Shown here one piece after another: positions 8,361-64,000 of a DNA stretch of 64,000 bases. Each line of letters opens with the position of its first letter. Position 1 is the first letter of the stretch. The position numbers were made by a program, and so were the translations under genes. The notes below the pieces were generated by a model, which saw only the letters and a list, made by a program, of their open reading frames with translations, searched no databases and was not told the DNA's origin. Origin of the DNA: Minisyncoccota bacterium (GTDB taxonomy: Bacteria; Patescibacteriota; Minisyncoccia; Minisyncoccales; CG1-02-41-26); contig JAQULB010000002.1 in the NCBI GenBank assembly GCA_028718785.1, forward strand, positions 20,750 to 84,749, read 5' to 3'.

Positions 8361-8431
8361 TGTGATTGGGGAGGAGTTTTTATAATATAACTTTTATAAT
8401 ATAATAAAAAATAAGTATAAGAATGTAAGCC

Positions 8432-9046: not shown

Positions 9047-9092
9047 AAAAAGGCCCATAGGAAATTCGGAAATCCTGCGAGGCCTTTTAATT
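9047..9092. terminator. bidirectional terminator-like hairpin
   Basis: aaaaggccc...aggcctttt with flanking A-run and T-run, between convergent genes. Confidence 0.55.
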
Positions 9093-9121
9093 TTTTATAT
9101 TGCTCAATATGCCCTTGTCCA

Positions 9122-9334: not shown

Positions 9335-9491
9335 TTTACCCTCCAGAGTTGACCTCTTCCTCAGAAGAGGCGAATTGATTTGTGTTAACTTTTGATTAAC
9401 AACTTTTATATTATAGATATTTTTTAAAAAAAGCAAGAATTTAATTTGAAAGTTTTAGCGAAAAATAGTACATTAAAGATAACTTTATAAT

Positions 9492-49984: not shown

Positions 49985-50941
49985 ATGCCTCAGTCCAAAA
50001 TCTTTTTTATTTCCTGCCTTTGTTTTATTGGCAGTATTTTTATTTGTTCGTTTATTTTTTTAAACTCACCCCCAAAGAAGTTAAACTCCTTCCAAAGCTC
50101 TGCAAGGAGTTTAACTCCTTGCAGTTCTGTTAAAGAAAAATTTAGGGAAGTTATTAACACTAATTTGCCAAATCCCCAATCAGCTATTTTGGCTGGCATA
50201 TTGCTTGGAGATAAAGCCAGTTTTAGTGGCGAGTGGAAGCAAAAACTATCAAACACTGGCACAAGCCACATAGTGGCGGTTTCGGGAATGAATATTGTTA
50301 TGCTGTCTCAAATTTTAGTTGTTTTGGGGGTGGCTTTGGGGCTTTATCGAAGGCAGGCCTTGTTTTTTTCTTTAATTTTAATTTGGCTTTTTATTGCTTT
50401 AATTGGTTTTCAGGTGTCAGCTGTGAGAGCTGGAATCATGGGTTCAATTTTAATTGTTTGCTCTCTTTTGGGCCGGCAAAATGCCAGTTTTCGGGCTTTG
50501 GTTTTAGCAGTGGCTGTAATGTTGGCAATAGATCCAACATTGTTAAGGTATAGTTTAAGCTTTCAGCTTTCGGTTTTAGCCACTCTGGGGCTTATTCAAT
50601 TAAGCGGGGTTATAAAAAGTAAGCTTTCTAAGTTGAAAATCTTTAGAAGCAATAAAGAACTTACAGAAATAATTTCAGCCACCATATCTGCTCAGATATT
50701 CACCTTACCGCTTTTAATTTACACTTTTAACGCTGTTTCTTTGGTTGGTTTGCTTGTTAATATCTTAATTGTGCCGTTATTATCCGTGGTGATGGTTTTG
50801 GGAATTATATTTTTAATCGGCGCTTTAGTTTACAACCCCTTGGGAATTATATTGGGTTGGCTGGTTGGAATTTTACTTTCTTTCATTGTCTGGGTAATTG
50901 ATATATTTTCTAAAATTCCATTTGCCATTTTAAGGTTTTGA
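49985..50941 (+). CDS. comEC: ComEC/Rec2-family competence membrane protein (competence domain only)
   Basis: TGTSHIVAVSGMNIVML signature; polytopic. Confidence 0.7.
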   Translation: MPQSKIFFISCLCFIGSIFICSFIFLNSPPKKLNSFQSSARSLTPCSSVKEKFREVINTNLPNPQSAILAGILLGDKASFSGEWKQKLSNTGTSHIVAVSGMNIVMLSQILVVLGVALGLYRRQALFFSLILIWLFIALIGFQVSAVRAGIMGSILIVCSLLGRQNASFRALVLAVAVMLAIDPTLLRYSLSFQLSVLATLGLIQLSGVIKSKLSKLKIFRSNKELTEIISATISAQIFTLPLLIYTFNAVSLVGLLVNILIVPLLSVVMVLGIIFLIGALVYNPLGIILGWLVGILLSFIVWVIDIFSKIPFAILRF

Positions 50942-51035
50942 TAGTGGCAAAAAACGATTTTTTGTGGTATATTAAAAAGCATAAACTCTCAAAAAGAGCT
51001 TTGAGCTTAAAGGTGAAAATAAAAATTTAAAAAAT

Positions 51036-51407
51036 ATGCATATAAAAAGTATTATTAACGCTCGCAAACAGGTCAATAGCTTTAAAAATTCTTTTCATGG
51101 TTTAAAAGTGGCTTTTTTTGAAGAACAAAGCTTTAAAATTCAAGCTATACTGGCTTTAGTGGTTTTTCTTTTAATGTTTTCTTTGCCCTTGCATTCCATT
51201 GAAAGAGCTATTTTGGTTTTAGCGGTTATGTTTGTTTTGGGCTTGGAGCTTTTAAATTCTCAAATTGAAAGAGCACTGGATACCGCGCAGTTTGATCATA
51301 ATCCTAAAATAAAAGATATAAAGGACTTGTCAGCGGGCGCTGTTTTGTTGGCTTCTATTGGCGCTTTAATTATTGGTCTTTTTATATTTATTCCATATCT
51401 TACCTAA
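51036..51407 (+). CDS. dgkA: diacylglycerol/undecaprenol kinase (DgkA family)
   Basis: Three TM helices, ELLNSQIERALD and KDLSAGAVLLASI motifs. Confidence 0.7.
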   Translation: MHIKSIINARKQVNSFKNSFHGLKVAFFEEQSFKIQAILALVVFLLMFSLPLHSIERAILVLAVMFVLGLELLNSQIERALDTAQFDHNPKIKDIKDLSAGAVLLASIGALIIGLFIFIPYLT

Positions 51408-51482
51408 AGTGAAACTTTTTTTCGCTTTTTTCGTAATAGTATATATGGGGAAATACCCAATTAAATAAACGATTTCTAAGAT

Positions 51483-52868
51483 ATGTATATAGAGATTTCA
51501 TCTAAAAAAATTCAAAATAAAATCAAAAGTTTTCTTGCAACATTAAAGGGTTTAAAAATAAGTTTTCCAAAAATAAAAATAAAAGGCATAGCTAAAACAA
51601 AAATCAGTTTTGTTTTTTTGGTTTTAGCTATTTTTTTGGTTTTTGCTCTTGGTTTTTGGGGCGGGGATTTTTTTGCCAAACAGGCCAAAGGAGAATTAAG
51701 CGGACTTTTTGGCCAGGTTAAAGAATTTGTTTTAAATAAAGGATTTAATCAAGCTCCAATACTTCCCCCTATTCCCCTTGAAGAATACAAGCCCCAAACA
51801 TCTCAAGAAGAAGCAATTATAAATGTGGTAAAAAACGCTTCTCCTTCAGTTGTGAGCGTAATTATTAGTAAAGATATGCCAGTTTATGAGCAGTATGTGG
51901 AAACACAGCCCTTTTCTGATTTTTTTGGCGGGCAAATTCAAATCCAAGTTCCCAAAACCCGTCAAAAAGGCACGCAAAGACAAGTGATTGGCAGTGGAAG
52001 CGGGTTTATTGTTTCTTCTGATGGCACAATAATAACCAACAAGCATGTTGTTTCAGATCAAGACGCTTTCTATGAGGTGATTACATCAGAAGGAAAAAAA
52101 TATCCAGCTAAGGTTTTAGCTAAAGACCCCTTGCAGGATTTAGCGATTATGAAAATAACGCAAAAAGCCACTTCAAGCCCTGAGGTTTTTCCAGCTGTTA
52201 GTTTTGGCAACTCTGATTTGGCAATAGTGGGCCAAACTGCCATTGCCATTGGAAACGCTTTGGGAGAATTTAGCAATTCGGTTTCTGTGGGGGTGATTTC
52301 TGGGCTATCAAGAAGCATTACAGCTGAGGGCGGGGGAGTATCTGAGGATTTACAAGATATATTGCAAACTGACGCGGCTATTAACAAAGGAAATTCTGGA
52401 GGGCCTTTGTTAAATTTAAAAGGCGAGGTTATTGGAGTTAATGTGGCAGTGGCTGAAGGCGCTCAAAGCATTGGCTTTGCCATTCCAGTTAATAAAGCCA
52501 GAAGAGATATTCGCCAGTTAAGGGAGCAAGGCAAAATATCTTATCCGTTTTTGGGTATTAGATATGTTTTAATTAACTCCGACATTCAAGAAACAGAAAA
52601 ATTATCAGTTGATTATGGCGCTTTAGTTTCAAAAGGCGACACTGCCAATGAGCCAGCCATTGAGCCGGGCTCTTCTGCTCAAAAAGCTGGCTTAAAAGAA
52701 AACGATATTATTTTAGAGGTGGATGGGGTTAAAATTACCTCAAAAATTCCATTGGCTAATATTGTTCAAAACCAGCATATCCCGGGAGATAAAATTGTTT
52801 TAAAAGTTTTGCGAGGCGCAAAAGAAATGGAAATTACCGTAACTTTAGGTGAAAAATCCAGCGAATAG
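51483..52868 (+). CDS. HtrA/DegP-family serine protease with PDZ domain
   Basis: Catalytic triad context TNKHVV, DLAIMK, GNSGGPLLN. C-terminal PDZ (GLKENDIILEVDG). N-terminal TM anchor. Confidence 0.85.
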   Translation: MYIEISSKKIQNKIKSFLATLKGLKISFPKIKIKGIAKTKISFVFLVLAIFLVFALGFWGGDFFAKQAKGELSGLFGQVKEFVLNKGFNQAPILPPIPLEEYKPQTSQEEAIINVVKNASPSVVSVIISKDMPVYEQYVETQPFSDFFGGQIQIQVPKTRQKGTQRQVIGSGSGFIVSSDGTIITNKHVVSDQDAFYEVITSEGKKYPAKVLAKDPLQDLAIMKITQKATSSPEVFPAVSFGNSDLAIVGQTAIAIGNALGEFSNSVSVGVISGLSRSITAEGGGVSEDLQDILQTDAAINKGNSGGPLLNLKGEVIGVNVAVAEGAQSIGFAIPVNKARRDIRQLREQGKISYPFLGIRYVLINSDIQETEKLSVDYGALVSKGDTANEPAIEPGSSAQKAGLKENDIILEVDGVKITSKIPLANIVQNQHIPGDKIVLKVLRGAKEMEITVTLGEKSSE

Positions 52869-52882
52869 ATTAAGGAAATAAG

Positions 52883-52958
52883 AAAAGTGTACAAATCTGT
52901 GCCGACTCGCCTTGCTGGAGCCTTCGGCGTAGCGCAGGTCGGCTAACTTTTGACACGG
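52883..52958. repeat. long (nested) variant of the GTGTCAA..GCCGA|..|TCGGC..TTGACAC element
   Basis: aaaagtgtacaaatctgtgccga[ctcgccttgctggagccttcggcgtagcgcaggt]cggctaacttttgacacgg. The 34-nt core insertion is identical to that in the reverse complement of 62451-62526. Confidence 0.9.
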
Positions 52959-53009
52959 TTTATTTTCTCATTATTTTGTGGTATTGTTTGACAATAAGAG
53001 AGAAATCAT

Positions 53010-53186
53010 ATGAAAACAATTTTAATTGTGATTTTAGCGGGTTTAGTGATAATAGCAGGAGCGTTTTATTGGTATTCTTGGAGGCCGACACAGATTAGGC
53101 AGGAATGTGTAGACGCTACTCTTTCGGGGGTTGTAGTAGATGGAGCTTATGAGTTATGTTTATTAAGACACGGATTAGAAAAATAA
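53010..53186 (+). CDS. hypothetical 58-aa membrane-anchored peptide
   Basis: Hand-translated MKTILIVILAGLVIIAGAFYWYSWRPTQIRQECVDATL...; below the track cutoff. Confidence 0.35.
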   Translation: MKTILIVILAGLVIIAGAFYWYSWRPTQIRQECVDATLSGVVVDGAYELCLLRHGLEK

Positions 53187-53247
53187 TTTTTAAATTAGAA
53201 ATTAAGTCATTAAAAATTATTTAAAAATTAAAAATTATTTTACGAAG

Positions 53248-53325
53248 TTACCCCAGTTAAACAGCTCCTTGAGGTCGCGTTTAACGGGGTGTAAGTTCTC
53301 GTAAATTCGTTTCACTCATTAACGA
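53248..53325. repeat. compact copy of the ccccagttaaac...gtttaacgggg hairpin element (upstream of clpB)
   Basis: accccagttaaacagctccttgaggtcgcgtttaacggggtgtaagttctcgtaaattcg; an 11-bp stem with one bulge. Confidence 0.8.
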
Positions 53326-53333
53326 TAACTAAC

Positions 53334-56039
53334 ATGCCATTTATACAAGGGGGAGAATTTACATATAAGGCCCAAGAGGCAATGATGAAAGCTCAATCAT
53401 TCGCTCGGGAGCGGAATCAACAGCAGGTTGACGCCTTGCATCTTTTGCTTGCTTTGTTGATTCAAGAAGAAAGCGTGGTTGTTAGTTTGTTGCGAAGCTT
53501 GCAGCTTGACATTGATGATTTAAAACATAAAGTTGAAACCGCTTTAAACCAGTTAAAGCCAGTGGCGCCTGGGGGGCCAACCGTAATGGGCCAGTTTTAC
53601 TTAACGCAGGACTTGGCTATGGTGTTGGAAAAATCAAAAGAAGAAGCAATGGCAATGGGGGATGAGTTTATATCCATTGAGCATATGTTTTTAAGTATTC
53701 TTTCCAATCAAACCAGAGCTTTTGAAGTATTACAAACCGCTCATTTTACTTCTCAGCTAATATCGGCTCCGTTGGAAAGGGAAATTGTTTTAAAAAAATT
53801 AGCGGAAATTAGGGGTGGTGAAAGAATAAGCGACCCCAACCCAGAAAGCAAATTTGAAGTTATTAAAAAATATTCTCGCAATTTAACCGCTTTAGCCATT
53901 GAAGGAAAATTAGACCCAGTTATTGGTAGAGAGTCAGAAATAAGGCGGGTAATGCAGGTGTTGAGCCGTAGAACAAAAAATAATCCTGTTTTAGTTGGAG
54001 AGGCTGGAGTTGGCAAAACCGCGGTTGTTGAAGGCCTAGCTAAAAAAATTGTTTCTTTAGATGTGCCCGAAAGCTTAAAAGGCAAAGAGATTATTGCTTT
54101 GGATCTGGGCTCTTTAGTGGCAGGCACAAAATTTAGGGGCGAATTTGAAGCTCGGCTAAAGGCCTTTGTTAATGAAATTGAAAGAGCTCAAGACCACTAT
54201 ATTTTATTTATAGACGAGTTGCACACATTAGTGGGGGCTGGAGCGGCTGAGGGTTCAATTGACGCTTCCAATTTATTAAAACCCGCTTTAGCTCGGGGAG
54301 AACTGCGAGCCATTGGAGCCACCACCTTAAAAGAATATCAAAAATATATTGAAAAAGACCCGGCCTTAGAAAGAAGGTTTCAGCCAGTTTTGGTTGTTGA
54401 GCCATCAGTTGAGGACACCATTGCTATATTGAGAGGCATAAAAGAAAAATACGAACTGCACCATGGCGTTAAAATAAAAGATGCGGCTTTAAAAGCCGCC
54501 GCTGAGTTAAGCTCACGGTATATATCTGACAGGTTTTTGCCCGATAAAGCCGTGGATTTAATGGACGAGGCCGCTTCTTCTTTGCGTCTTGAAATTGAAT
54601 CTGAGCCAACCGAACTTGAGGACTTAAGAAATGAAATTACAAAACTGGAAATTGAAAAGCGGGTTTTAAGCAAAGAACAAGGCAATATCACTCGACTAAA
54701 AGCGGTTGAACGGAGTTTAGCTGATTTAAACGAAAAGGTTTCAGCTATAAAAATGAAATGGGCAGGAGAAAAAGCTATTATCACTGAAATAAAAGAGCTA
54801 AAAAAAGAAATGGACCAAGTTTCTTTTCAGGTGGAGGTGGCTCACCGAGAAACTGATTTGCAAAAAGTGGCTGAATTAAAATACGGAAAAATTCCTGAGC
54901 TAAAAAAGCGAATGACAGAAGCAGAAAAAAAACTGCAAAATATCCAGCAAAACAACTCTATTTTAAAAGAAGAAGTAACCGAAGAAGATGTGGCCATGGT
55001 GGTTTCTCGTTGGACAGGCATTCCAGTTAATCGTTTAATAGAGGCAGAAGCGCGTAAATTAGAAAAAATGGAGCAAGAATTAAAGAACAGAGTAATTGGC
55101 CAAGACGAGGCAATTATGGCTGTTTCAAACGCTATTAGGCGAGGCCGGTCAGGTATTGGAGATGAAAGCCGGCCAATGGGAGTGTTTATGTTTTTGGGGC
55201 CAACAGGCGTGGGAAAAACCGAAACCGCTCGAGCCTTAGCTGACTTTTTATTTAGCACAGAAAAATCGCTTATAACTGTTGATATGAGCGAGTATATGGA
55301 AAAATACAGCGTGTCTAAAATTTTGGGCAGTCCTCCCGGATATGTTGGTTATGAAGAAGGCGGGCAATTAACTGAAAAAGTAAGACGCAGGCCTTATAGC
55401 GTGATTTTGCTTGATGAAATTGAAAAAGCTCACCCAGAAGTTTTTAATATTTTGTTGCAAATTTTTGAAGAAGGCCGTTTAACTGACGCCAAGGGTCGGC
55501 CGGTTTCGTTTAGAAATTGCATAATTATAATGACCTCAAATGTGGGCAGTGATTTTATTGCTCAAATGAAACCAATTGGTTTTGAAATGCAAAAAGGCGA
55601 CAGCCCGGCCCAAAAGAAAGACAACATTCAAAAGAAAATTCAAGAGGCCTTAAAAGAGGCGTTTAAGCCCGAGTTTTTAAACCGAATTGATGAAATAATC
55701 ACTTTCAATTATTTGGGCGCCAAAGAAATAAGGCAAATTGTGGATTTAGAGCTAAATAAAGTGGAAAAAAGATTGGCAAAAGCTAAAAGTGTTAAATTAA
55801 AGTTTTCCAAGGCCTTGTGCGACGCTATGGCCCAAAAAGGATTTGACGCTGATTTGGGAGCAAGGCCTTTAAAAAGAATAATTCAAAAGTTAATTTTAGA
55901 TCCTTTGGCCTTAAAAATTATTATTGGGGAAATAAAAGAAAAAGACGCAGTATCAGCTGACTTTAAAAATAACGAAGTGGTTTTTGTTGTGTCTCATATA
56001 TCGCCCAAAAAACGAGAAAAAGCATCCATTGCCAAGTAA
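53334..56039 (+). CDS. clpB: ATP-dependent chaperone ClpB
   Basis: Clp N-domain, two AAA+ modules ([16 protein letters not shown]) and a long coiled-coil M-domain between them. Confidence 0.95.
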
Positions 56040-56065
56040 ATTTAAAAATTTAATTTAAGTTTTTA

Positions 56066-56098
56066 CCCTCCGCCTTAAGCGGAGGGTTTTGCTTTTTT
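56066..56098 (+). terminator. intrinsic terminator
   Basis: ccctccgc-cttaa-gcggaggg followed by ttttgctttttt. Confidence 0.75.
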
Positions 56099-56301
56099 AA
56101 ATTAAAATGTTAAATTGAAATTGGAAACGAAAAGTTTAAAAATTATCAACCCAAACAGAAAAGGAGTGGACAATGAGGGGAATGCTGCGGATTTATTCAT
56201 CTATTTATTCTTGGAAATACCCCGGAAAGAGGTGATCCAGCGTCTACCTGCATGCGGCTCCTTTTTTAAAGCAGGTTTTTATATTGAGTGATACGGGGTC
56301 A

Positions 56302-56366
56302 CTCCAAAAATGGCTTGAGTATTTAAGAAACTAATCGACCAGCTTAAATATTTCAAGCCATTTTTT
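56302..56366. terminator. long bidirectional terminator-like hairpin
   Basis: atggcttgagtatttaag...cttaaatatttcaagccat (about 17 bp) with an A-run before and tttttt after. Confidence 0.5.
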
Positions 56367-56773
56367 CTTGTAATTTTTATTAATTTTGCTATAGTTATAG
56401 TTGATAGGGCATTGCTTAAGGTTCATTTTACGATCCTTCGTTTATGAATTTTTGACTAATGCTTTATCCTCCGAAAAAAGAAAAAAAGTCCACCGTATGG
56501 TGGCGAAAGGAGGATAGAACTTTGAAAAAATTTTCTCGGAATTTTGGGCTTAGTAAGCCATTATGAAAGAATTCCGAACAAAACAGTTTTCCAACACAGG
56601 GTCAAAAGCGATGGCCCTGTTGTTTTTTTGTTTTTAAAAATAATAAAAAAGCCAAGTGTGGTTGTAAACTACGATGGTAATTTTTAAAATTTATTGGTAA
56701 AGTATTTAATAAGTCATTGGGTTTTTTATTGTCTTTGCGTCTGTATCGTTCTATAAAAAATAGGAGGAGAAAA

Positions 56774-57061
56774 ATGGCACAAGGCAAAAAGAGCTTTTTT
56801 GAGGAGATGATAGAAATTACAGAGGATGGTCTTCAAGATGTTCAAAACGCTAACGCCAATGCTGGGGTAATTATGGCTTTTGATGGAGATATTCATTTGG
56901 ACAATATGGCGGTATCTATGATGGGAAGATATCAGATTCCAGTAGAGGAAATGGCCATGTTCATTGTGGCAATGGGAGTTAAGATTTTTCAAGAAGCGAA
57001 AAGGGAAGTTTCTATTACTGTGGTGATGGAAACCCCCAAGATTGAGCAAAAGGTTGAGTAA
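56774..57061 (+). CDS. hypothetical 95-aa protein
   Basis: ATG 8 nt after TAGGAGGAG; the hairpin aaatgcctttcca...tggaagggcattt follows the stop. No motif recognised. Confidence 0.5.
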   Translation: MAQGKKSFFEEMIEITEDGLQDVQNANANAGVIMAFDGDIHLDNMAVSMMGRYQIPVEEMAMFIVAMGVKIFQEAKREVSITVVMETPKIEQKVE

Positions 57062-57213
57062 AATGTATATAATAAAAAATGCCTTTCCATATATATTGGA
57101 AGGGCATTTATATTATAGAAAGGCGATTGGGGCATTTGAAAGGGAATTTGAAGGGGTACTTGGAAGACATTTGGAAGGCATTTTATGTATACTTTATTTA
57201 TAGAAGTGAGTTT

Positions 57214-57259
57214 AAAAGCGTGTCAAAGTTGGCCGATCGGCACGGATTGACACACTTTT
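57214..57259. repeat. GTGTCAA..GCCGATCGGC..TTGACAC element, left flank of PaaX-like module 2
   Basis: aaaagcgtgtcaaagttggccgatcggcacggattgacacactttt, 42 nt upstream of the ATG. Confidence 0.9.
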
Positions 57260-57300
57260 AAGTTTAGTGATAAAGTAAAAAATAAATAGAGAATAGAAAT

Positions 57301-57903
57301 ATGAAGTATTCTTTCCAACAAAAGAAAAGGTCTGTCACTTATAAACTTTTCAGCAAAGGCATAGACGCAACAACCCATATTTTATTAGCCTTGTATGAAA
57401 ATACCCAGTTAGCTAGAGAAGGTTTTCTTAGAGGTTGCCCTCAATATTCTGGTTTTGGATTAGCAAGAGCGGTATTTGGGAAAGATAGTTATCCACAGCC
57501 CAAAAAAGAAGCAATCCGTACCGATCTTTCTCGTTTGCAAAAAGAAGGTTTGATAAAAAAAGACCCAAAACAAAAAATTTATTACTTAACTGATAAGGGA
57601 AAAGAACTTGTAAGCTACATCGAAAATCGTTTTTTAATTTTACAAGAACCTTGGGATAAAAAGTTTCGTGTTGTTATTTTTGATGTGCCAGAAAAGAAAA
57701 GATATTGGAGAGTTTTCTTAAAAAGAGAGTTAGAATTAATGCAATTTCAACAACTCCAAAAAAGTGTTTACATTGGCAAGTATCCTTTGCCAGCAAGCTT
57801 GATAAAAGAAATAGAGGCCGATAATATGGGGGAGTTTGTTTATATTTTTACAGCGGAGAATATTGACAGGCAAGATGAGATTTTAAAAATGCTAAATGAA
57901 TAG
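57301..57903 (+). CDS. PaaX-family protein: wHTH + Cas2-like central domain (paralog 2)
   Basis: LSRLQKEGLIKKD...LTDKGKE (wHTH), then PWDKKFRVVIFDVPEKKR...LQKSVYIGKYP. Homologous to 7761-8318. Confidence 0.7.
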   Translation: MKYSFQQKKRSVTYKLFSKGIDATTHILLALYENTQLAREGFLRGCPQYSGFGLARAVFGKDSYPQPKKEAIRTDLSRLQKEGLIKKDPKQKIYYLTDKGKELVSYIENRFLILQEPWDKKFRVVIFDVPEKKRYWRVFLKRELELMQFQQLQKSVYIGKYPLPASLIKEIEADNMGEFVYIFTAENIDRQDEILKMLNE

Positions 57904-57941
57904 TGTGTCAATCCGTGCCGATCGGCACGGATTGACACACT
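57902..57941. repeat. perfect 40-bp palindrome of the same family, right flank of PaaX-like module 2
   Basis: agtgtgtcaatccgtgccga|tcggcacggattgacacact; overlaps the stop codon. Confidence 0.95.
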
Positions 57942-58022
57942 ATTTAATAAAGAAATTAGCAACGGGGTTGACAAATAGATGTGGTTTTGATAGGTTTGCT
58001 GTAAGTAAATAAAATAATAAAT

Positions 58023-58295
58023 ATGGAACAAACAAGCCTAAGTTCAAGCGTTTCAACAAAGAAAAGTTCAAAAAAGTTGGCAATTTTTTTAATTTTGGGA
58101 GTGGTAATTCTGGCCGGTATAGCTGGAATTTTTTATTATAAATATAAAAGTAATGGAGTTTATGGTGAGCTTGCCGAACCACCGAAATTGTTTGAGAAAG
58201 GGGATTATAAGGTGGAAGACAGAGCTGATGGCCAGTATATTGTGGTGGATAAAGTGGGCCTAACCGCCAAGGTTCCAGATGGCTGGAGGGGTTGA
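58023..58295 (+). CDS. hypothetical membrane-anchored protein, possibly truncated
   Basis: N-terminal TM helix, then a short ectodomain ending ...KVPDGWRG-stop. Two hairpins follow immediately. Confidence 0.4.
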   Translation: MEQTSLSSSVSTKKSSKKLAIFLILGVVILAGIAGIFYYKYKSNGVYGELAEPPKLFEKGDYKVEDRADGQYIVVDKVGLTAKVPDGWRG

Positions 58296-58510
58296 AAGCA
58301 TATTATTCTTTCAACGGGAATTTTAGCCAAATGCTTTTGGCGTGAAAATTCACAGGGTCGTGCGGAATATAATATTTATTCTTTTTCCGCACGAGGAGTT
58401 TGAAAATACTTTTGGTCGTTGATTTTGAAAATAAGTCGTTTTATTATTTCCAAAAAAAGCGTCAGATAGATGGTGAATGTAGTTAAAAGTGTTTGGTTTA
58501 AAGATTGAGA

Positions 58511-58550
58511 GTTATCCACAGGTTGCGTAAGTTTTCTGTTTTGTTAAAAT
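58511..58550 (+). promoter_or_regulatory. DnaA-box + promoter module: gTTATCCACAgg TTGCGT-16-TAAAAT
   Basis: Same 16-mer and same box-to--35 spacing as upstream of nrdD. Confidence 0.5.
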
Positions 58551-58556
58551 TAAATA

Positions 58557-58740
58557 TAAAATACATACACTAACAATTCATTGTCTCACTGGCAAGCGAG
58601 ACAGCAGGGCGAACAATAAGCATCGGAAACACCTCAATAGCGGTGCACTCTGTGGGGGGAAACCCCACAGCTTGCCAAAATTTGTGGGGTTCGTGATTGA
58701 ATTCAGGAATCCTACAGAGTGTCCTGCTATTGGGGTTTTT
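58557..58740 (+). ncRNA. candidate ~180-nt structured RNA of unknown class
   Basis: Hairpin tgtctc/gagaca (58582-58603). Its loop tggcaagc is complementary to gcttgcca (58670-58677). Long composite stem caatagc+cactctgt / acagagtg+gctattg encloses ctgtgggg-ggaaa-ccccacag. Ends in ggggttttt. Confidence 0.4.
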
Positions 58741-58794
58741 AATTAAGTATACTTACAAAAAAAGTAATTACAGCGGGAGGTTGGTAATAGAAAT

Positions 58795-59002
58795 AATGAT
58801 AAAAAAATGTTCAGAATTAGAGAATCAACGATGCTTTCTAGTTGATGGTGGTAGAGTATGTAACCATAGAAAGCTAAAAGATGGACTATGTGCCATTTCC
58901 AATAAGATTGGGGGGTGGCTATTCATGAAGGACAAGGTTATAAAAAAAGATAAAACCCCAGGTCATATTGAGGTTTTATCAAATGTTAAGTCTAGCTCTT
59001 AA
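58795..59002 (+). CDS. hypothetical 68-aa Cys-containing protein (weak call)
   Basis: Internal ATG of the track ORF (MIKKCSELENQRCFLVDGGRVCNHRKLKDGLC...). No convincing RBS. Bounded by 15-bp inverted repeats at 58761 and 59041. Confidence 0.25.
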
Positions 59003-59334
59003 TAATTGTTAACCGAACCGCTGTAATTACTCATTAGGCACGCTGTAATTACTTTCTTTGTAAATATTTAACTTACTTTTATTTTCACAAAGATAGAAAC
59101 TTCTGTCAAACATCCCCAAGCTCTATTTCTGTGGATAACTTTTAATAAGAAAACACTACCATAGTGTTTCTTTTTTTACAAGAGTTTTGATAAATACTGT
59201 TTGTAATTATAATACGAACGATCAAGTCTCCCTATTGGAGAATAGTTTTTTTATTGATAATATGAAATTAATGAATAATTTAGAATTGACCATTAAGAGC
59301 TAACTAACTTTTTAAATAAAGTAAAAACAAAAAA

Positions 59335-60774
59335 ATGAGTAAGCTAACGAAAATTTCCAAAAATAAAATAAAAAATAATGGGCAAATTTATACCCCAGAT
59401 TTTATAGTAAATAATATCCTTGATATTGTCGGATATGATGGGAATAGTATTTTAGAGAAAGATATTATTGATAATAGTTGCGGAAACGGAGCTTTCTTAA
59501 TCGGAATAGTAAAAAGATATTGTGGGGCTTTCTATAAAAAATACGGTAAGTCCGATAATGAAAAACTAAAAAGCCACTTGGAGAAATATATTCATGGTGT
59601 TGAGGTGCAAAGCGAGGAAATTGGAGGCTGTGTCGCTAACTTAAATAATGAAGTTAAAAATTTTGGGTTATTAAACGTTAAATGGGATTTAATTTGCGCA
59701 GACGCATTATCGGTTGATAGTTATAACGGGAAAATGGATTTTGTAGTAGGAAATCCTCCTTATGTTAGAGTTCATAACCTAAATGAAAGCTATAATAAAG
59801 TGAAAGAATTTAAATTTTGCAAAAAAGGAATGATCGATTTGTATATAGTTTTCTTTGAAATAAGTTTAAAAATGCTCAATAAATCAGGAAAGATGTGTTT
59901 AATAACTCCCAGTTCATTTCTGAGAAGCAATGCTGGTGCAGAATTAAGGAAATATATATTTGAGAACAAAAATTTAACGAAAGTCATAGATTTGGAGCAT
60001 TTTCAACCATTTAATGCTACAACCTACACCATGATAACCCTTTTTGAAATGGGTAAAAAATGTAATCAAATAGAATACTATATATACGACGAGGATAAAA
60101 AAGAACCAAAAAAGATAGAGAGTTTAAACTATTCAGATATATTTATAGATGGAAAGATCTATTTTTCAAAAAATGAAAATTTGAAATTTTTAAGAGAAGT
60201 AGAGGTTTATAATACTAATAACAAAGCAGATTTTGATGTTAAGAATGGTTTTGCAACGCTGGCTGATAGTGTTTTTATTAACAAGTTAAACTTTGAGAAT
60301 AAAACCATTCCCGTATTAAAGGCCTCTACTGGTAAATGGTATAGCTGTTTTTTTCCATATGATGAGGCGGGAGAACCAATCAATTTTGATGAAATAAAGC
60401 AAAACTCACAGCTATATAACTATTTATTGGACAATAAGGCGATGTTAGAAGAAAGAAGTTTAGAAAAAAATAGTAGCTGGTTTTTATTTGGTAGAAGTCA
60501 GGGGATAAAAGATGTGTTTAAGAATAAAATAGCGATAAATACAATAATAAAAGATGTTGACAGTATAAGGATTGAAGAAGTTCCGTCTGGTAGTGGTATA
60601 TATAGTGGATTATATGTCTTATCAAATATGTCTTTTAACAAAGTAAAGGAGAGCGTTAAGAATAGTGATTTTATAAATTATATTAAATTATTAAAAAATT
60701 ATAAAAGTGGAGGATACTACACTTTTTCTTCTGGCGAATTAAAGAATTTTTTGAATTATAAAATAAAAAGATAA
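59335..60774 (+). CDS. N6-adenine DNA methyltransferase (gamma class, Eco57I/TaqI-like)
   Basis: GQIYTPDFIV (motif X), DNSCGNGAFL (motif I), VVGNPPYVRV (motif IV, NPPY), followed by a large C-terminal target-recognition region. Confidence 0.8.
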   Translation: MSKLTKISKNKIKNNGQIYTPDFIVNNILDIVGYDGNSILEKDIIDNSCGNGAFLIGIVKRYCGAFYKKYGKSDNEKLKSHLEKYIHGVEVQSEEIGGCVANLNNEVKNFGLLNVKWDLICADALSVDSYNGKMDFVVGNPPYVRVHNLNESYNKVKEFKFCKKGMIDLYIVFFEISLKMLNKSGKMCLITPSSFLRSNAGAELRKYIFENKNLTKVIDLEHFQPFNATTYTMITLFEMGKKCNQIEYYIYDEDKKEPKKIESLNYSDIFIDGKIYFSKNENLKFLREVEVYNTNNKADFDVKNGFATLADSVFINKLNFENKTIPVLKASTGKWYSCFFPYDEAGEPINFDEIKQNSQLYNYLLDNKAMLEERSLEKNSSWFLFGRSQGIKDVFKNKIAINTIIKDVDSIRIEEVPSGSGIYSGLYVLSNMSFNKVKESVKNSDFINYIKLLKNYKSGGYYTFSSGELKNFLNYKIKR

Positions 60775-60778
60775 TAAT

Positions 60779-61489
60779 ATGGAAAATAAAGAATTTTTAG
60801 AAATAATAAGCTCGTCATTTGTTAAGTTTTTAGAAACCTCTGCCAGAAGTAATAAAAAATTAAAAATACTTCACGGGGCGATAGCTATAGATATAGAGAA
60901 AAGGCTTGGGAAAGGTTATGCCATTTGCTCTCTCGGTTGTGGCGAGGGTAAGGAAGTTAAAATAAGTGGGAGATATATGGATAAAACGGTTGACATAGCA
61001 GTTTATAAGGGCGAGAACGACATAGCGGCGATCGGGGTTAAGTTTGTAATGAATAATTATTCCCAAAATTCAAACAATTATTTTGAAAATATGCTTGGGG
61101 AAACTGCCAATATAAGGGCGAATAAAAAGAAGTATTTTCAAATTTTAATTCTTCCCGAAGAATTACCCTACTATGATAATTCTGGGAAGATTACGCATTG
61201 GGAGAAAATTACAACTCATAACATCAATAAATATATTAAATTGTCTAATGACGATGAAGATGTATTTTTTCATACACCTATCAAAACGCTTATTTGCATA
61301 ATCAAACTGCCAAAACTTGATATTCAAACAATAACCAACAAAACCCAATATAAAAAACATTATTTAGATATTGGGAGTATTAAATTGGATTTTTCCACAA
61401 ACATATCGAATAGTTTTGGTGAAAGGGTGGTTTTGAATGATTATGAAGACTTTATCAAAAAAGTAGTTTTCTTTCTTAAAAGTATCTAA
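60779..61489 (+). CDS. putative type II restriction endonuclease partner
   Basis: Starts 5 nt after the methyltransferase stop and shares its extreme AT-richness. KTVDIAV...AAIGVKFV resembles a degenerate PD-(D/E)XK core. Family not recognised. Confidence 0.45.
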   Translation: MENKEFLEIISSSFVKFLETSARSNKKLKILHGAIAIDIEKRLGKGYAICSLGCGEGKEVKISGRYMDKTVDIAVYKGENDIAAIGVKFVMNNYSQNSNNYFENMLGETANIRANKKKYFQILILPEELPYYDNSGKITHWEKITTHNINKYIKLSNDDEDVFFHTPIKTLICIIKLPKLDIQTITNKTQYKKHYLDIGSIKLDFSTNISNSFGERVVLNDYEDFIKKVVFFLKSI

Positions 61490-61550
61490 TCTACTAAAAT
61501 ACACTGGTCTTACCAGTGGAACTTCTACTATTTCCAATATTGCATCAGGC

Positions 61551-62450
61551 ATGGCTTGGCCGGGGTTTCAGGATAATGGCGATACATTAACCGACTTGCG
61601 TACAAATTTAACTTGGCAAAAAGATGCTTTAAGCTCTATAAACAATTTTGGAGCCAGTACCACTCAAGACAATGCTGTTGATTTTATAACAGGACAAAAC
61701 AGCGATTGGCGCTTGCCAAATTTTAAAGAGTTAGCCAGTTTGTTTAGCTATGCCCTCCCCAATCCCGGAGTGTGGAGCGGATTTTTAAACATAAAGCCAG
61801 AAAATTATTGGTCAATAAGCAAAAGAATGATTAACGCTCCCACTTGGGGCATACCTCCCCGGTACAGTGGCTGGTCTTTTAATTTCTTAAATGGAATAGT
61901 TGAAAATAATATTTATGACTTGGGGCAAGACAATAATTTTTATTCTTTTATGGCCACTAAAAATCAAGGAATCCCCGGTGGGCTATCGGGTGATGATGAT
62001 TTTGATTTTACCGACAATAATGATGGCACAATAAAAGACAACAAAACTGGCTTAATGTGGCTTAACGCAAATTTATCCCATGTAATGGGCAATCGCAAAA
62101 ATTGGAATTCGGCTTTTATGCTTGCTAATAATGTTGCTTTATGCAACGACGGAACTTTGCAGGGCAATGAAAACAAAGCTGGGGATTGCTTGGCTAATGG
62201 GGGAGTAAAATATGATGACTGGCGATTGCCCAATGTTCAAGAGTTAATGGAAATAACTAAACTGGACAATCAGCCCGGGATTCCTTCAATTTTGCCAAAC
62301 TTGAGCTTGGGTGTTTCTTTCTACTGGACTGGCACAATGTTTGACGCAAATAATGTTTGGTATGTGGGAGATGGGTTTTGTTTTGGTATGGTTAATTACA
62401 GGGCAAAAATTGGCGAGGAGTTTAATGTTCAGCTAGTGCGGGAGGAGTAA
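61551..62450 (+). pseudogene. DUF1566 (Lcl C-terminal domain-like) protein, apparently 5'-truncated
   Basis: Two DUF1566-type modules (..TNLTWQKD..DWRLPNFKELASL.. and ..TGLMWLN..DDWRLPNVQELMEI). The frame stays open upstream to 61467 without a start or signal peptide, and it abuts the R-M island. Confidence 0.55.
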
Positions 62451-62526
62451 CCGTGTCAAAAGTTTGCCGACCTGCGCTACGCCGAAGGCTCCAGCAAGGC
62501 GAGTCGGCGCAGATTGACACGCTTTT
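62451..62526. repeat. long (nested) variant of the palindromic element, inverted relative to 52883-52958
   Basis: ccgtgtcaaaagtttgccgacctgcgctacgccgaaggctccagcaaggcgagtcggcgcagattgacacgctttt starts 1 nt after the DUF1566 stop. Confidence 0.9.
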
Positions 62527-62747
62527 GGTTTGATCTTTAGGTGGGGGAATAATTTTATAAAAAAAAGGAGAAACAGCATAATTGCTAATGGGGAAAGGCG
62601 GCGACCTTAAAACCATTTTTTGTTTATGCGAGTTTCTCCTATAGAGGAGAAGGGCAGGTTGGGCGAAAGCTGTCAAAATTCCGTGGGAGATGGATATTTT
62701 GACGACTTTAGGCCTGCCCCTCTTTTTAAAAAATTTTTAAGGCGCTT

Positions 62748-62767
62748 GCCACCCTTAAGGGGGTGGC
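62748..62767 (-). terminator. hairpin after the Cys-rich peptide gene
   Basis: gccaccc-ttaagg-gggtggc, 9 nt downstream of the stop; T-rich tract a few nt further on the minus strand. Confidence 0.45.
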
Positions 62768-62775
62768 TTTGGTTT

Positions 62776-63015
62776 TTAATGGTGATGGGGTGGCTCGTGG
62801 TGTTCCCACGGTTGTCCACCGTAAGAACAACAAGGCGTTGCTCCGTTTCCGTTTTTGCAACCATCAATGTTGGCATTTGTGCCAACTAAACACCCAACAG
62901 CTGACATTCCCTCCTTACATCCAGCAGTGGGATTAGATCCCGGCTGACAAATCACGCATCCCCTTGTTTCGTGAGTGTTGAAAAGTTCCGGTTTTTCGTA
63001 TTTTCTTTTTTCCAA
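62776..63015 (-). CDS. 79-aa Cys-rich peptide with YxxPxL-type leader and His-rich tail (RiPP-precursor-like or metal-binding)
   Basis: TTG start 7 nt after AAGGAGG. MEKRKYEKPELFNTHETRG then five Cys sites about 10 aa apart (RGC..C, AGC, VGC, DGC, PCC), ending HHEPPHHH. G+C-richer than its surroundings. Confidence 0.6.
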   Translation of the reverse strand: MEKRKYEKPELFNTHETRGCVICQPGSNPTAGCKEGMSAVGCLVGTNANIDGCKNGNGATPCCSYGGQPWEHHEPPHHH

Positions 63016-63290
63016 AAGATTACCTCCTTTTTCAAAGTATAGAACAAAATTTGTTTATTTTTTATACCACAAAATTTGTAGATGTGCAAATAAAAACAGG
63101 GAAAGCGTTTTGGTCTGGTTTATTTTAACAACCCCTTACGGAGTTAAAATAAAGCAATTTTTTAAAACGCTTTCCCTTTGTTTTGGAGGTCTTTTGCTTG
63201 ACGAAAAAAAGCAAAAGACAGAATTTAAAAGCATAGCATTAACCCAAAAACAAGTCAAAAAAAATACAAGTAAATATCAAGTAAAATTGT

Positions 63291-63319
63291 TTGACAAAAC
63301 AGGGAATTTTTGCTATAAA
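63291..63319 (+). promoter_or_regulatory. sigma70-like promoter TTGACA-17-TATAAA
   Basis: Read directly, about 130 nt upstream of the 63451 ORF. The leader contains a terminator-like hairpin. Confidence 0.55.
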
Positions 63320-63450
63320 TACAAGCATAATGGCGTAAAAGTAAAATTTTTAAGGTGGTATTTTTCGCCACTTAAAACCCCTCCACCTTATTTACTTTTA
63401 CGCTCTTTTTTTAAAGTTGATTTTTATTTTAGGTGTGATAAAATCTAAAA

Positions 63451-64000
63451 ATGTTTGAAAGGAGCCATGTTATTAAGCTCACCATGGTTTTATATAAGGT
63501 GAGTGATTTTTTTCCTGAAAAAGAACCATTGAAAGCTCTGATTAGAAAAAAAGCTGACGAAGTGCTGGCTGGTTTGATATTGCTGGAAAAAGATAGTAAT
63601 TTGGCAGTGCAGGTTTTGGGAGATATTGAAATAATAAAAGCTTATATTGAGCTGGCCCAAAATCAAGATTGGCTAAAAAGCGAAAATTTTGAAGTTTTAA
63701 AAAAAGAGTATTGTTTGATTAATGATAAAATAAAAGAACAGATTATTTTTGAAAAAAATACCACTAGCCAAGAGCAAGAAAAAAAGAAATTTGTTTCTGC
63801 TCTGCCACATTCAATTAAGACAAACAATGAAAGTGAAGATTCAAGAGTTCACCTAAACGAAAGACATAAAAAAATTATTGGTATTTTAAAACAAGGAAAG
63901 TTAATTCAAGTAAAAGATTTAAAAGATGTTTTTCCAAACATTAGCAAAAGAACAATAAGAAGAGATTTTGAATATTTATTTGAAAATGGCTTAGTGGAGA
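63451..64000 (+). CDS. helical N-domain + DeoR-type wHTH protein (partial, runs off the window)
   Basis: Hand-translated open frame from the ATG at 63451. ...HKKIIGILKQGKLIQVKDLKDVFPNISKRTIRRDFEYLFENGLVE matches the DeoR-type HTH. No stop before the window end. Confidence 0.6.
   Translation, partial: MFERSHVIKLTMVLYKVSDFFPEKEPLKALIRKKADEVLAGLILLEKDSNLAVQVLGDIEIIKAYIELAQNQDWLKSENFEVLKKEYCLINDKIKEQIIFEKNTTSQEQEKKKFVSALPHSIKTNNESEDSRVHLNERHKKIIGILKQGKLIQVKDLKDVFPNISKRTIRRDFEYLFENGLVE

What the first reader, a model, noticed from the sequence alone, without database searches (positions are those of the whole stretch)
62776..63015. Orphan Cys-rich peptide gene with RiPP-like leader and His-rich tail
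Seen: a strong RBS (AAGGAGG, 7-nt spacer) with a TTG start, its own hairpin after the stop, and higher G+C than the surroundings. Peptide: MEKRKYEKPELFNTHETRG-CVIC-QPGSNPTAG-C-KEGMSAVG-C-LVGTNANIDG-C-KNGNGATP-CC-SYGGQPWEHHEPPHHH. The N-terminus contains Y-x-x-P-x-L, the leader motif bound by RRE/PqqD-like domains in lasso and other RiPP pathways (established knowledge). The core has Gly-Cys sites at a regular spacing of about 10 residues, as in radical-SAM thioether (sacti-/ranthipeptide-type) precursors. The HHEPPHHH tail and 7 Cys equally suggest a small metal-binding protein. No maturase is visible within the window.
Basis: partly seen in the sequence, partly recalled or inferred. Interest (0 to 1): 0.55.

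Follow-up and report, generated by a model that had tools for sequence, protein, structure and literature searches.

The report
Stranded radical-SAM peptide precursor gene
A small gene in a tiny-genome bacterium encodes a cysteine-rich peptide related to precursors that radical-SAM enzymes modify in other bacteria, but this genome has none of those enzymes, so the peptide stands alone.

Summary
The 79-codon ORF at 62776-63015 (-) is real. It has a TTG start, AAGGAGG 7 nt upstream, a promoter-like site and a hairpin after the stop.

It is not a family-less orphan. A profile of six relatives, built without it, finds it as the only hit among 13,120 open frames of its own genome (E 1.4e-10; 0 of 2000 shuffles reach its score). 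All seven peptides share Y-x-K-P-E in the leader and five C-x-x-G motifs.

In the one relative locus with readable flanks, four tandem paralogs lie inside a SynChlorMet (SCM) cassette. It holds PqqD-like ScmD, radical SAM/SPASM ScmE and ScmF, ScmC, an S26-type peptidase and an ABC exporter.

The window's own genome (841 kb, 100% marker completeness) has no ScmC, no ScmD or PqqD, and no ScmE/F-grade enzyme. The gene was not found in 40 relatives. It fills an intergenic gap that two same-genus genomes lack.

Verdict: a stand-alone, divergent ScmA-like precursor homolog with two extra Cys and a new His-rich tail. Its function here is unresolved. Most likely it is left unmodified, as a relic or a co-opted Cys/His peptide. 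Interest is moderate to low.

The parts
63061..63089 (-). Promoter-like site for the peptide gene: TTGCAC (63089-63084), 17-nt spacer ending in TGG, then TATAAA (63066-63061)
   Evidence: Read by eye. The automatic scan does not list it, because that scan requires T at the last position of the -10 hexamer. Inference, not shown.
63023..63029 (-). Shine-Dalgarno AAGGAGG, 7 nt before the TTG start
   Evidence: Read directly.
62776..63015 (-). 79-codon ORF plus stop: a stand-alone ScmA-like Cys-rich peptide
   Evidence: A profile of 6 relatives built without it scores it at 40.9 bits, E 1.4e-10, as the only hit among 13,120 open frames of the genome; 0 of 2000 shuffles reach it.
62959..63015 (-). 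Leader part, residues 1-19, with Y6-x-K8-P9-E10 invariant in all 7 aligned peptides (L11 is Ile in one of them)
   Evidence: Alignment A3. The start codon aligns within one residue of the relatives' Met.
62818..62958 (-). Core part, residues 20-66: five C-x-x-G motifs (C23, C33, C42, C53, C63) invariant in the family, plus two extra Cys (C20, C62) found only in this copy
   Evidence: Alignment A3.
62779..62817 (-). C-terminal extension, residues 67-79 (QPWEHHEPPHHH region), with no His-rich counterpart in the six relatives
   Evidence: Alignment A3. The relatives end 2-11 residues after the Gly of the fifth aligned C-x-x-G and none carries His there.
62748..62767 (.). G+C-rich hairpin directly after the stop codon; terminator-like on both strands, more canonical on +
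62601..62745 (-). Long, very stable imperfect hairpin 3' of the gene, unexplained; no second copy found in the genome
   Evidence: Folding 62600-62790 (-) gives -62.9 kcal/mol against shuffles at -37.4 +/- 3.6, z = -7.0. There is only a chance-level Rfam match (MIR1033, 28.5 bits against a gathering score of 70). Within the genome only query positions 10-94 (the REP-like repeat) recur.

Best explanation
**What it is.** The ORF is a genuine small gene. It encodes a divergent, stand-alone homolog of the precursor peptides of SynChlorMet (SCM)-type radical SAM/SPASM peptide-modification cassettes.

**How the family is expected to work (inferred from gene content, not shown).**
- The N-terminal Y-x-K-P-E-L leader is held by the PqqD-like protein ScmD.
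- The two rSAM/SPASM enzymes ScmE and ScmF modify the core at the repeated C-x-x-G cysteines.
- An S26-type peptidase removes the leader and an ABC transporter exports the product.

**What differs here.**
- None of that machinery is present in this genome.
- The gene is a compact unit of its own (promoter-like site, strong RBS, ORF, hairpin).
- It lies in an intergenic gap that the closest relatives lack.

**Most likely mode here.** The peptide, if made, stays unmodified by radical SAM enzymes. It is then either a relic of a transferred precursor gene or a co-opted Cys/His-rich peptide, since it has two extra Cys and a new His-rich tail that could bind metal.

**Shown:** the homology and the orphan state. 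**Inferred:** the present function.
For: **Coding and homology.**
- The SD and start were read.
- GC1 and GC2 (0.54, 0.51) far exceed GC3 (0.385), and GC3 equals the host expectation.
- A full HMMER search of 1.84 billion representatives found a 73-aa peptide, P0005, at E 7.3e-4; pairwise it shows 38% identity, E 4e-13.
- Alignment A3 of 7 peptides has M1, Y6, K8, P9, E10 and five C..G pairs invariant.
- The profile built without the query gives E 1.4e-10, the next frame scores E 0.68, and 0 of 2000 shuffles reach it.

**Context of relatives, locus L039.**
- ScmD 127.8 bits (cut-off 100).
- ScmE 640 bits (cut-off 400).
- ScmF 634 bits (cut-off 400).
- Four tandem paralogous peptides.
- ScmC 329 bits (cut-off 125).
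- A signal-peptidase-I-like gene and an ABC exporter.
- A second locus, L049 (1.4 kb), has three tandem peptides of the same type.
- Three of the 7 A3 members and 2 of the 3 L049 peptides touch the ScmA model TIGR04252 below its cut-off; best E 9.4e-5.

**Orphan state.**
- The genome has 6 rSAM genes: MiaB, NrdG, Elp3, RlmN, one unclassified B12-type and one SPASM-type.
- The SPASM one lies between sugar-pathway genes. Its nearest solved relatives are GDGT-MAS, DesII, BtrN, viperin and MoaA.
- No ScmC, PqqD or ScmD was found at E <= 1.
- tblastn with all cassette proteins found only generic rSAM and ABC hits.
- Nothing relevant lies in the 16 kb beyond the window.

**Insertion.**
- Not found in 40 relatives.
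- In G002 and G003 the flanking Lcl_C-type and DeoR-type genes are neighbours, with 200- and 544-nt gaps against 1000 nt here, and without the ORF.

**Leader competence (weak).** Complex prediction of L039 ScmD with this peptide gave 'weak support': score 0.32, best of 3 controls 0.02. That mark was reached by 58 of 80 solved complexes and 2 of 110 mismatched pairs. At 0.60 or under it was reached by only 7 of those 80 and by both passing mismatches. The runs agree in at least 55% of contacts and the partner's pLDDT is at least 38.
Against: - Every family-invariant position, including the leader motif that should only matter if an RRE protein reads it, is intact. Yet third codon positions look host-like. 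A long-stranded, unselected relic should have decayed. This favours a recent arrival from an A+T-rich donor, ongoing selection, or a maturase that I could not see.
- The assembly has 18 contigs. 100% marker completeness does not exclude a missing accessory contig or plasmid.
- Only one relative locus has readable flanks. The contigs of P0005 (17.8 kb) and P0008 (5.3 kb) could not be fetched.
- No expression or metal-binding data exist.
- The peptide itself scores only 8.9 bits (E 1.8) on TIGR04252, whose cut-off is 35.
- Both the SPASM rSAM and the peptide are species-specific accessory genes of this genome. A link between them is therefore not strictly excluded.
Confidence: 0.6

Rival explanations
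1. It is a working RiPP precursor. The peptide is matured by radical SAM/SPASM enzymes encoded in trans: on an unassembled part of this genome, on a plasmid, or in a partner organism. Precursor genes far from their cassette are known in other RiPP classes (recalled, not checked here).
For: - The leader motif and all five C-x-x-G sites are intact despite 62-66% divergence from the relatives.
- Expression signals are intact.
- GC3 is host-like, so residence in an A+T-rich genome has not eroded the motifs.
- There is weak predicted docking to a cassette ScmD: 0.32 against a best control of 0.02, with the caveats.
- The assembly is in 18 contigs.
Against: - No ScmC, ScmD, PqqD or ScmE/F-grade gene is in the assembly, which has 100% marker completeness.
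- ScmC was found in 0 of 401 genomes of the same phylum, while the positive control G440 scored 328 bits.
- Relatives keep their precursors in tandem right beside the enzymes.
- Maturation by another cell's cytoplasmic enzymes has no known route.
Confidence: 0.15
2. It is a co-opted, unmodified Cys/His-rich metal-binding peptide. A precursor scaffold lost its enzymes, gained two Cys and a C-terminal His cluster, and now binds or buffers a metal, or serves as a thiol-rich peptide.
For: - It has 7 Cys and 6 His in 79 residues.
- The extra Cys (C20, C62) and the 13-residue His-rich tail occur only in this copy among the 7 aligned peptides.
- The strong RBS and intact ORF argue for use.
- The absence of any maturase makes an unmodified role the simplest way to explain retention.
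Against: - No match to any metal-binding family was found in Pfam or NCBIfam.
- The ESM Atlas model is disordered, with pLDDT 0.33.
- The leader motif would be useless in this role, yet it is intact.
- The gene is absent from the 3 same-genus and 37 other relatives searched, so any such role is dispensable.
- No metal-related genes lie nearby.
Confidence: 0.2
3. It is a chance ORF, or the G+C-rich stretch is a non-coding RNA or repeat and not a gene.
For: - The ORF is short, has a TTG start and has no close homolog.
- The word-indexed search of 5.8 billion proteins found only the ORF itself.
- The neighbouring 300 nt are also G+C-rich and strongly structured, z = -7.0.
Against: - The profile built without the query gives E 1.4e-10, with 0 of 2000 shuffles reaching its score.
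- The start codon aligns with the relatives' Met.
- A perfect SD lies at 7 nt.
- GC1 and GC2 far exceed GC3.
- No Rfam family matched at gathering level in 56000-64000.
Confidence: 0.05

Closest known systems
ScmA, the putative precursor of the SynChlorMet (SCM) cassette (NCBIfam TIGR04252), with ScmC/D/E/F (TIGR04249/04248/04250/04251)
   Same: - It has the Y-x-K-P-E-L type leader followed by a Gly/Ser/Thr-rich core with repeated Cys.
- Its nearest relatives sit inside a cassette whose ScmC, ScmD, ScmE and ScmF all pass their curated cut-offs.
- Several of those relatives touch the ScmA model at E 1e-4 to 4e-3.
   Different: - The window's peptide scores 8.9 bits against a cut-off of 35.
- It is 79 aa against a 49-position model.
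- It has five C-x-x-G repeats plus two extra Cys and a His-rich tail.
- It stands alone in a genome without any Scm gene.
- To my knowledge (recalled) the cassette is defined only by comparative genomics. The paper library holds no text with 'SynChlorMet' or the TIGR numbers.
Sactipeptide and ranthipeptide precursors with rSAM/SPASM maturases (for example the SkfB, PapB and AlbA families)
   Same: - It has a leader plus a Cys-repeat core.
- In relatives the neighbouring enzymes are rSAM/SPASM proteins. The closest solved structure for ScmE is the thioether-forming SkfB (E 9.7e-24), followed by PqqE.
- ScmE also hits the PapB-family model at 85.9 bits, below its cut-off of 340.
   Different: - ScmE and ScmF are their own families, not PapB, AlbA or SkfB.
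- No thioether or any other product is known.
- Here there is no maturase at all.
Lasso-peptide and other RRE-dependent leaders (Y-x-x-P-x-L motif bound by PqqD-like domains)
   Same: The motif Y6-x-x-P9-x-L11 is present, and the relatives' cassette has a discrete PqqD-like protein.
   Different: - No PqqD domain is in this genome.
- The relatives' cassette has no lasso cyclase or leader peptidase. I did not search this genome for lasso enzymes.
- The core is far longer and Cys-rich.
Bacterial metallothionein-like small Cys/His proteins
   Same: It is small, has 7 Cys and 6 His, and is predicted to be disordered without ligand.
   Different: - It has no Pfam or NCBIfam match.
- The Cys pattern is inherited from a precursor-peptide family.
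- It carries a leader that such proteins lack.

Membership tests
ScmA (NCBIfam TIGR04252, SynChlorMet cassette precursor) | Score at or above the curated cut-off (35 bits) of the family model | tested here: not met
   It scores 8.9 bits, E 1.8. The relatives reach 17-23 bits, also below the cut-off.
ScmA (NCBIfam TIGR04252, SynChlorMet cassette precursor) | Encoded in a cassette with ScmC, ScmD (PqqD-like) and ScmE/ScmF (rSAM/SPASM) | tested here: not met
   - ScmC, ScmD and PqqD are not found in the own genome at E <= 1.
- The sole SPASM rSAM scores 44 and 55 bits on ScmE and ScmF against cut-offs of 400.
- tblastn with the cassette proteins finds nothing specific.
- The feature is met in the relative locus L039.
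5 x C-x-x-G peptide family defined here (P0005, P0006, P0007, P0008 and two more L039 paralogs) | Leader Y-x-K-P-E-[LI] near the N-terminus and five in-register C-x-x-G motifs | tested here: met
   All 17 invariant columns of A3 are kept. The profile built without the query gives 40.9 bits, E 1.4e-10, and 0 of 2000 shuffles reach it.
rSAM/SPASM-modified RiPP precursor (sacti-/ranthipeptide kind) | Cognate rSAM/SPASM maturase with an RRE in the same genome | tested here: not met
   The six rSAM genes are MiaB, NrdG, Elp3, RlmN, one B12-type and one SPASM-type in a sugar cluster. No PqqD/RRE was found.
rSAM/SPASM-modified RiPP precursor (sacti-/ranthipeptide kind) | Cys-to-carbon thioether cross-links in the mature product | not testable with these tools
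   This needs mass spectrometry or NMR of the native or co-expressed peptide.
Metallothionein-like metal-binding protein | Match to a known metal-binding family, or demonstrated metal binding | tested here: inconclusive
   No family match was found. Binding cannot be tested here.
Lasso peptide precursor | Lasso cyclase and leader peptidase with a PqqD-like RRE nearby | tested here: inconclusive
   PqqD is absent from the genome. Nothing of that kind lies in the 16 kb beyond the window. The cyclase and peptidase families were not searched genome-wide.

The most novel reading that the evidence does not exclude
A reduced-genome, probably symbiotic bacterium keeps a leader-bearing SCM-type precursor under selection without owning the enzymes. 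The peptide would then depend on, or interfere with, another organism's SCM machinery. It could be matured in trans by a partner. Alternatively it could act as a leader decoy that occupies the partner's PqqD-like ScmD, with the His-rich tail adding a new property. This would explain why the RRE-binding motif and all five modification sites are intact while third codon positions are already host-like.
Probability: 0.07. Interest if true: 0.75.

Novelty: new variant of a known kind. Interest (0 to 1): 0.35.

Why it matters
- **An uncharacterised cassette gains a substrate family.** The work links a so-far uncharacterised, computationally defined cassette (SCM) to a recognisable long-form precursor family. 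That family has tandem arrays and five C-x-x-G repeats, and the curated ScmA model misses it. This gives anyone who wants to work out ScmE/ScmF chemistry a set of natural substrates.
- **A clean case of a stranded precursor.** This copy is a precursor gene stranded without enzymes in a very small genome, in a phylum where ScmC was found in 0 of 401 sampled genomes. Such cases bear on how RiPP precursors move and whether they are re-used as unmodified Cys/His peptides.
- **Limits.** It does not open a new mechanism, and the function here remains untested.

Tried and rejected
**Family and homolog searches**
- Pfam and NCBIfam scans of the peptide gave nothing significant.
- The word-indexed search of 5.8 billion proteins found only the peptide itself, 1 of 1 candidates. 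With alignment A1 it found 2 of 6 candidates, the peptide and P0005. With A2 it found 5 of 13.
- The full HMMER search listed 4 proteins at E <= 0.001. Two are long repeat proteins (878 and 794 aa) whose best matched stretches cover only 20-26 query residues, and I dropped them as compositional.
- The six-frame search of 41 genomes (own plus 40 relatives) gave one other hit, G001 at E 0.079. It spans 29 positions with a stop inside, so I dropped it.
- The six-frame search of 401 genomes of the phylum gave 9 weak hits besides the genome's own.
  - Seven of them lie on tRNA-Leu(CAA) genes.
  - One lies in a low-complexity part of an open frame of more than 600 aa.
  - One lies in a Gly/Lys repeat with a stop inside.
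  - All 9 were dropped.
- The search of 301 genomes of G440's phylum found only G440 itself.
- The first metagenome scan found 0 relatives among 245 pattern matches.
- The second metagenome scan found 2 loci among 246 pattern matches. L050 is a chance match of the leader to the C-terminus of a 285-aa protein and was dropped. L049 was kept.
- The viral scan found 0 relatives among 75 pattern matches.

**Other checks that led nowhere**
- Rfam on 56000-64000 gave only chance-level matches.
- There are no tRNAs in 50000-64000.
- A regex scan of the own genome for further [YFW]-x-K-P-x-[LIVM] leaders followed by at least 3 Cys gave 8 frames. Only the ORF itself is a plausible peptide.
- ESM Atlas gave feature hits of 0.89-0.90 to unnamed small proteins, which are leads only, and no structural match above TM 0.32.

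**Sequencing runs**
- No RNA holder was listed. There are four DNA runs from one landfill-metagenome study.
- Contigs of a second sample (X2) cover 62725-63247 without a difference. This is the same study, so it is not independent.
- One low-depth X2 contig (275 nt, 19 other letters and 17 gaps) joins 62754 to 63092. It skips 337 nt, which is the whole promoter-to-hairpin unit. Only 30 letters lie on one side, so I treat it as a hint of a strain without the gene and not as evidence.

**Literature**
- 'SynChlorMet' gave 0 papers.
- The four TIGR accession numbers gave 0 papers.
- 'ScmE/ScmF/radical SAM' gave 7 listings, none relevant by title or abstract.
- 'Patescibacteria + ranthipeptide' (15 papers, 10 listed), 'orphan precursor + RiPP + radical SAM' (1) and the ranthipeptide/PqqD/SPASM search (10 papers, 8 listed) were seen as search listings only.
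- In PMC10288494 I saw only two passages from a term search. 'SCM', 'ScmA' and 'orphan' have 0 occurrences there.
- Supplements were not opened.

**Not possible**
The contigs of P0005 and P0008 were therefore never seen.

**Considered and rejected**
- The SPASM rSAM at C2:114274-115257 as maturase. It has a sugar-cluster context, no room for an RRE before the cluster-binding motif at about residue 64, and its nearest solved relatives act on small molecules.
- Recent transfer from a G+C-rich donor, because GC3 is host-like.
Full report
**1. The observation**

- On the minus strand, AAGGAGG (63029-63023) is followed by 7 nt and the TTG start (63015-63013).
- By eye there is also a promoter-like TTGCAC-17 nt-TATAAA at 63089-63061, with TGG just before the -10 hexamer. 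The automatic scan does not list it.
- A G+C-rich hairpin (62748-62767) follows the stop at once. The scan rates it as a terminator on the + strand and finds a weaker overlapping one on the - strand. The count of such sites in the region is not above shuffles (2 against 1.6 +/- 1.3).
- G+C over the ORF is 0.44-0.51, against about 0.29 just 5' of it.
- The excess lies in codon positions 1 and 2 (0.54, 0.51).
- Position 3 (0.385) is what the host's codon usage predicts for this amino-acid sequence: 0.371 +/- 0.053, with 45% of simulations at least as high. The genome-wide GC3 is 0.32.
- This periodicity is a coding signature. It also argues against recent arrival from a G+C-rich donor.

**2. The genome**

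- The window is C2:20750-84749 of an 841,226-base assembly in 18 contigs, with 36% G+C and 100% marker completeness.
- Its relatives have genomes of 0.3-1.0 Mb.
- I infer a CPR/Patescibacteria-type organism. No tool named it.
- The DNA occurs in four runs of one landfill-metagenome study.

**3. Homologs**

- Pfam and NCBIfam give nothing for the peptide. The ScmA model TIGR04252 appears only at E 1.8.
- The word-indexed protein search found only the peptide itself.
- The exhaustive HMMER search of 1.84 billion representatives found one credible relative, P0005. It is 73 aa and scores E 7.3e-4 library-wide; pairwise it shows 38% identity, E 4e-13. Two long repeat proteins from that search were dismissed.
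- P0005 touches TIGR04252 at E 0.0013.
- A scan of 185,579 species' genomes found one locus, L039, a 26.5-kb contig of a Nitrospirae MAG.
- A profile search added P0006 and P0007 (both from L039) and P0008 (68 aa).
- A second metagenome scan added L049, with three tandem peptides of the same type.
- In the 7-sequence alignment A3, identity to the window's peptide is only 34-38%. Even so, M1, Y6, K8, P9, E10, S27, P29 and five C-x-x-G pairs (C23/G26, C33/G36, C42/G45, C53/G56, C63/G66) are invariant.
- A profile of the six relatives, built without the query, was run against all 13,120 stop-to-stop frames of at least 30 aa in the own genome. It finds this ORF alone (40.9 bits, E 1.4e-10); the next frame scores 9.8 bits, E 0.68.
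- Against the same profile the peptide scores 43.5 bits, and 0 of 2000 shuffles reach that (maximum 12.4).
- Homology is therefore solid.

**4. What the relatives are**

L039 reads, in order:

| Gene | Coordinates in L039 | Score (curated cut-off) |
|---|---|---|
| ScmD, a discrete PqqD-like protein | 5346-5633 | 127.8 bits (100) |
| ScmE, rSAM/SPASM | 5640-6773 | 640 bits (400) |
| ScmF, rSAM/SPASM | 6767-7891 | 634 bits (400) |
| Four tandem paralogous peptides | about 7935-9011 | not applicable |
| ScmC | 9079-9999 | 329 bits (125) |
| Signal-peptidase-I-like protein | 9996-10697 | 53.1 bits on TIGR02228 (51.85) |
| ABC exporter | 10807-12606 | below the cut-offs of all matched models (best MsbA 292.9/602) |

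- This is a complete SynChlorMet cassette as NCBIfam defines it.
- The closest solved structure to ScmE is the thioether-forming SkfB (E 9.7e-24), followed by PqqE.
- So the family is a precursor family of an rSAM/SPASM peptide-modification system with a discrete RRE-type protein.
- The chemistry is unknown. The paper library has no text with 'SynChlorMet' or the four TIGR numbers. That the cassette is purely computational is my recollection.
- None of these peptides reaches the 35-bit cut-off of the ScmA model; the best is 22.6 bits. They form a longer, repeat-rich variant of ScmA.
- The family is rare. It was found in 0 of 300 further genomes of G440's phylum.

**5. This copy is alone**

- The own genome has six radical SAM genes: MiaB, NrdG, Elp3, RlmN, an unclassified B12-binding one (C4:20914-22428) and one SPASM protein (C2:114274-115257).
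- The SPASM protein lies 31 kb from the peptide gene. By my reading of the translations, without a family scan, it sits between a putative glycosyl/phosphotransferase-type gene and PseB-like dehydratase and DegT-type aminotransferase genes.
- It scores 44-55 bits on ScmE/ScmF against cut-offs of 400.
- Its nearest solved relatives are GDGT-MAS, DesII, BtrN, viperin and MoaA. I read it as a sugar or small-molecule enzyme.
- It too has no close ortholog in 25 relatives; the best is 29% identity.
- ScmC, ScmD and PqqD give no match at E <= 1.
- tblastn with all L039 cassette proteins gives only generic rSAM and ABC-ATPase hits.
- The 16 kb beyond the window hold a DeoR-type regulator, an ECF sigma factor and large PG_binding proteins.
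- ScmC was found in 0 of 401 genomes of the phylum. The same search scored 328 bits in G440 as positive control.

**6. It is a species-specific insert**

- The peptide was not found in 40 relatives searched in six frames: 3 of the same genus, 21 of the same family and 16 of the same order.
- It was not found in 400 genomes of the phylum either. All 9 weak hits there are artefacts, and 7 of them lie on tRNA-Leu genes.
- In the same-genus genomes G003 and G002, the flanking Lcl_C-domain gene and the DeoR-type gene are direct neighbours. Their gaps are 544 and 200 nt against 1000 nt here, with no such ORF.
- Only the last ~150 nt before the DeoR-type gene align.
- A second sample of the same study reproduces the ORF and its junctions without a difference.
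- One poor contig there skips exactly 62755-63091. I treat it as a hint only.

**7. How it most likely works**

- Shown: it is a coding sequence homologous to SCM-cassette precursors, with intact expression signals, and it lacks any cognate enzyme in a near-complete genome.
- Inferred for the family: the leader is read by ScmD, ScmE/F modify the C-x-x-G cysteines, and an S26 peptidase and an ABC exporter finish the job.
- A structure-prediction test of L039 ScmD against this peptide gave only weak support: score 0.32, best of 3 controls 0.02.
  - The mark was reached by 58 of 80 solved complexes and 2 of 110 mismatches.
  - At 0.60 or under it was reached by only 7 of those 80 and by both passing mismatches.
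  - The runs agree in at least 55% of contacts, and the partner's pLDDT is at least 38.
- For this organism I commit to 'made but not rSAM-modified'. It is then either a relic or a co-opted Cys/His peptide.
- The two extra Cys and the His-rich 13-residue tail are unique to this copy. They are the only features that point to a new role.
- The main difficulty is that the leader motif and all five sites are intact while GC3 is already host-like. That fits continued selection or a recent A+T-rich donor better than a long-stranded relic. It keeps the in-trans reading alive at about 0.15.

**8. Comparison and novelty**

- It works like, and is related to, ScmA-type precursors.
- It fails two membership tests: the model cut-off and the cassette context.
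- It is not a documented sacti- or ranthipeptide, lasso peptide or metallothionein.
- I rate it a new variant of a known, computationally defined kind.
- The useful by-products are the recognition of a long-form, tandemly arrayed 5 x C-x-x-G precursor family for the SCM cassette, and a clean example of a stranded precursor in a minimal genome.
- Interest is 0.35.

Noticed in passing
window 62449-62526: A ~78-nt imperfect palindromic repeat lies just after the Lcl_C-type gene. At least 6 further near-full copies (86-92% identity) occur in the own genome, for example at C2:73632-73709 and C2:85403-85479 and on C3 and C4. Copies also occur in same-genus genome G001. It looks like a REP/MITE-type intergenic element. 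Its fold is not exceptional (z = -1.5).
   Followed up: partly
window 62601-62745 (-): A very stable long hairpin lies 3' of the peptide gene (z = -7.0 for 62600-62790). There is no Rfam family at gathering level and no second copy in the genome. It is unexplained and may belong to the inserted segment.
   Followed up: partly
window 63290-63450 (+): TTGACA-17-TATAAA, followed by nested inverted repeats, lies upstream of the DeoR-type gene (63451->). The last ~150 nt are the only part of the intergenic region conserved in G002 and G003. It is possibly a regulated leader.
   Followed up: no
window 59335-61489 (+): An Eco57I/N6_Mtase-type DNA methyltransferase (479 aa) is followed by a 236-aa ORF with no Pfam family, presumably its nuclease partner. 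It lies two genes from the peptide gene and marks a variable-looking neighbourhood.
   Followed up: partly
G000:C2:114274-115257 (outside the window): This is the only SPASM-domain radical SAM protein of the genome (327 aa). It lies in a sugar-biosynthesis cluster and has no close ortholog in 25 relatives. It is probably a sugar-modifying enzyme of a strain-specific glycan locus.
   Followed up: partly
G000:C4:20914-22428 (outside the window): A B12-binding-type radical SAM protein (504 aa) matches no NCBIfam family above cut-off; the best is 50.6 bits against 600. Its neighbours were not annotated.
   Followed up: no
L039:7935-9011 and L049:413-1096: SCM-type precursors come as tandem arrays of 4 and 3 diverged paralogs with near-identical leaders. 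The curated ScmA model misses all of them at its cut-off.
   Followed up: partly
L030, L032, L033, L035-L038: Translated tRNA-Leu(CAA) genes give recurrent weak false hits to the peptide profile in six-frame searches. This is a trap for small Cys/Gly-rich queries.
   Followed up: yes
L050:1828-2685: A 285-aa protein, which by my reading of its sequence looks like a periplasmic solute-binding protein (no family scan was run), ends in a stretch nearly identical to the peptide's leader. It has no other likeness, so this is a chance match.
   Followed up: yes
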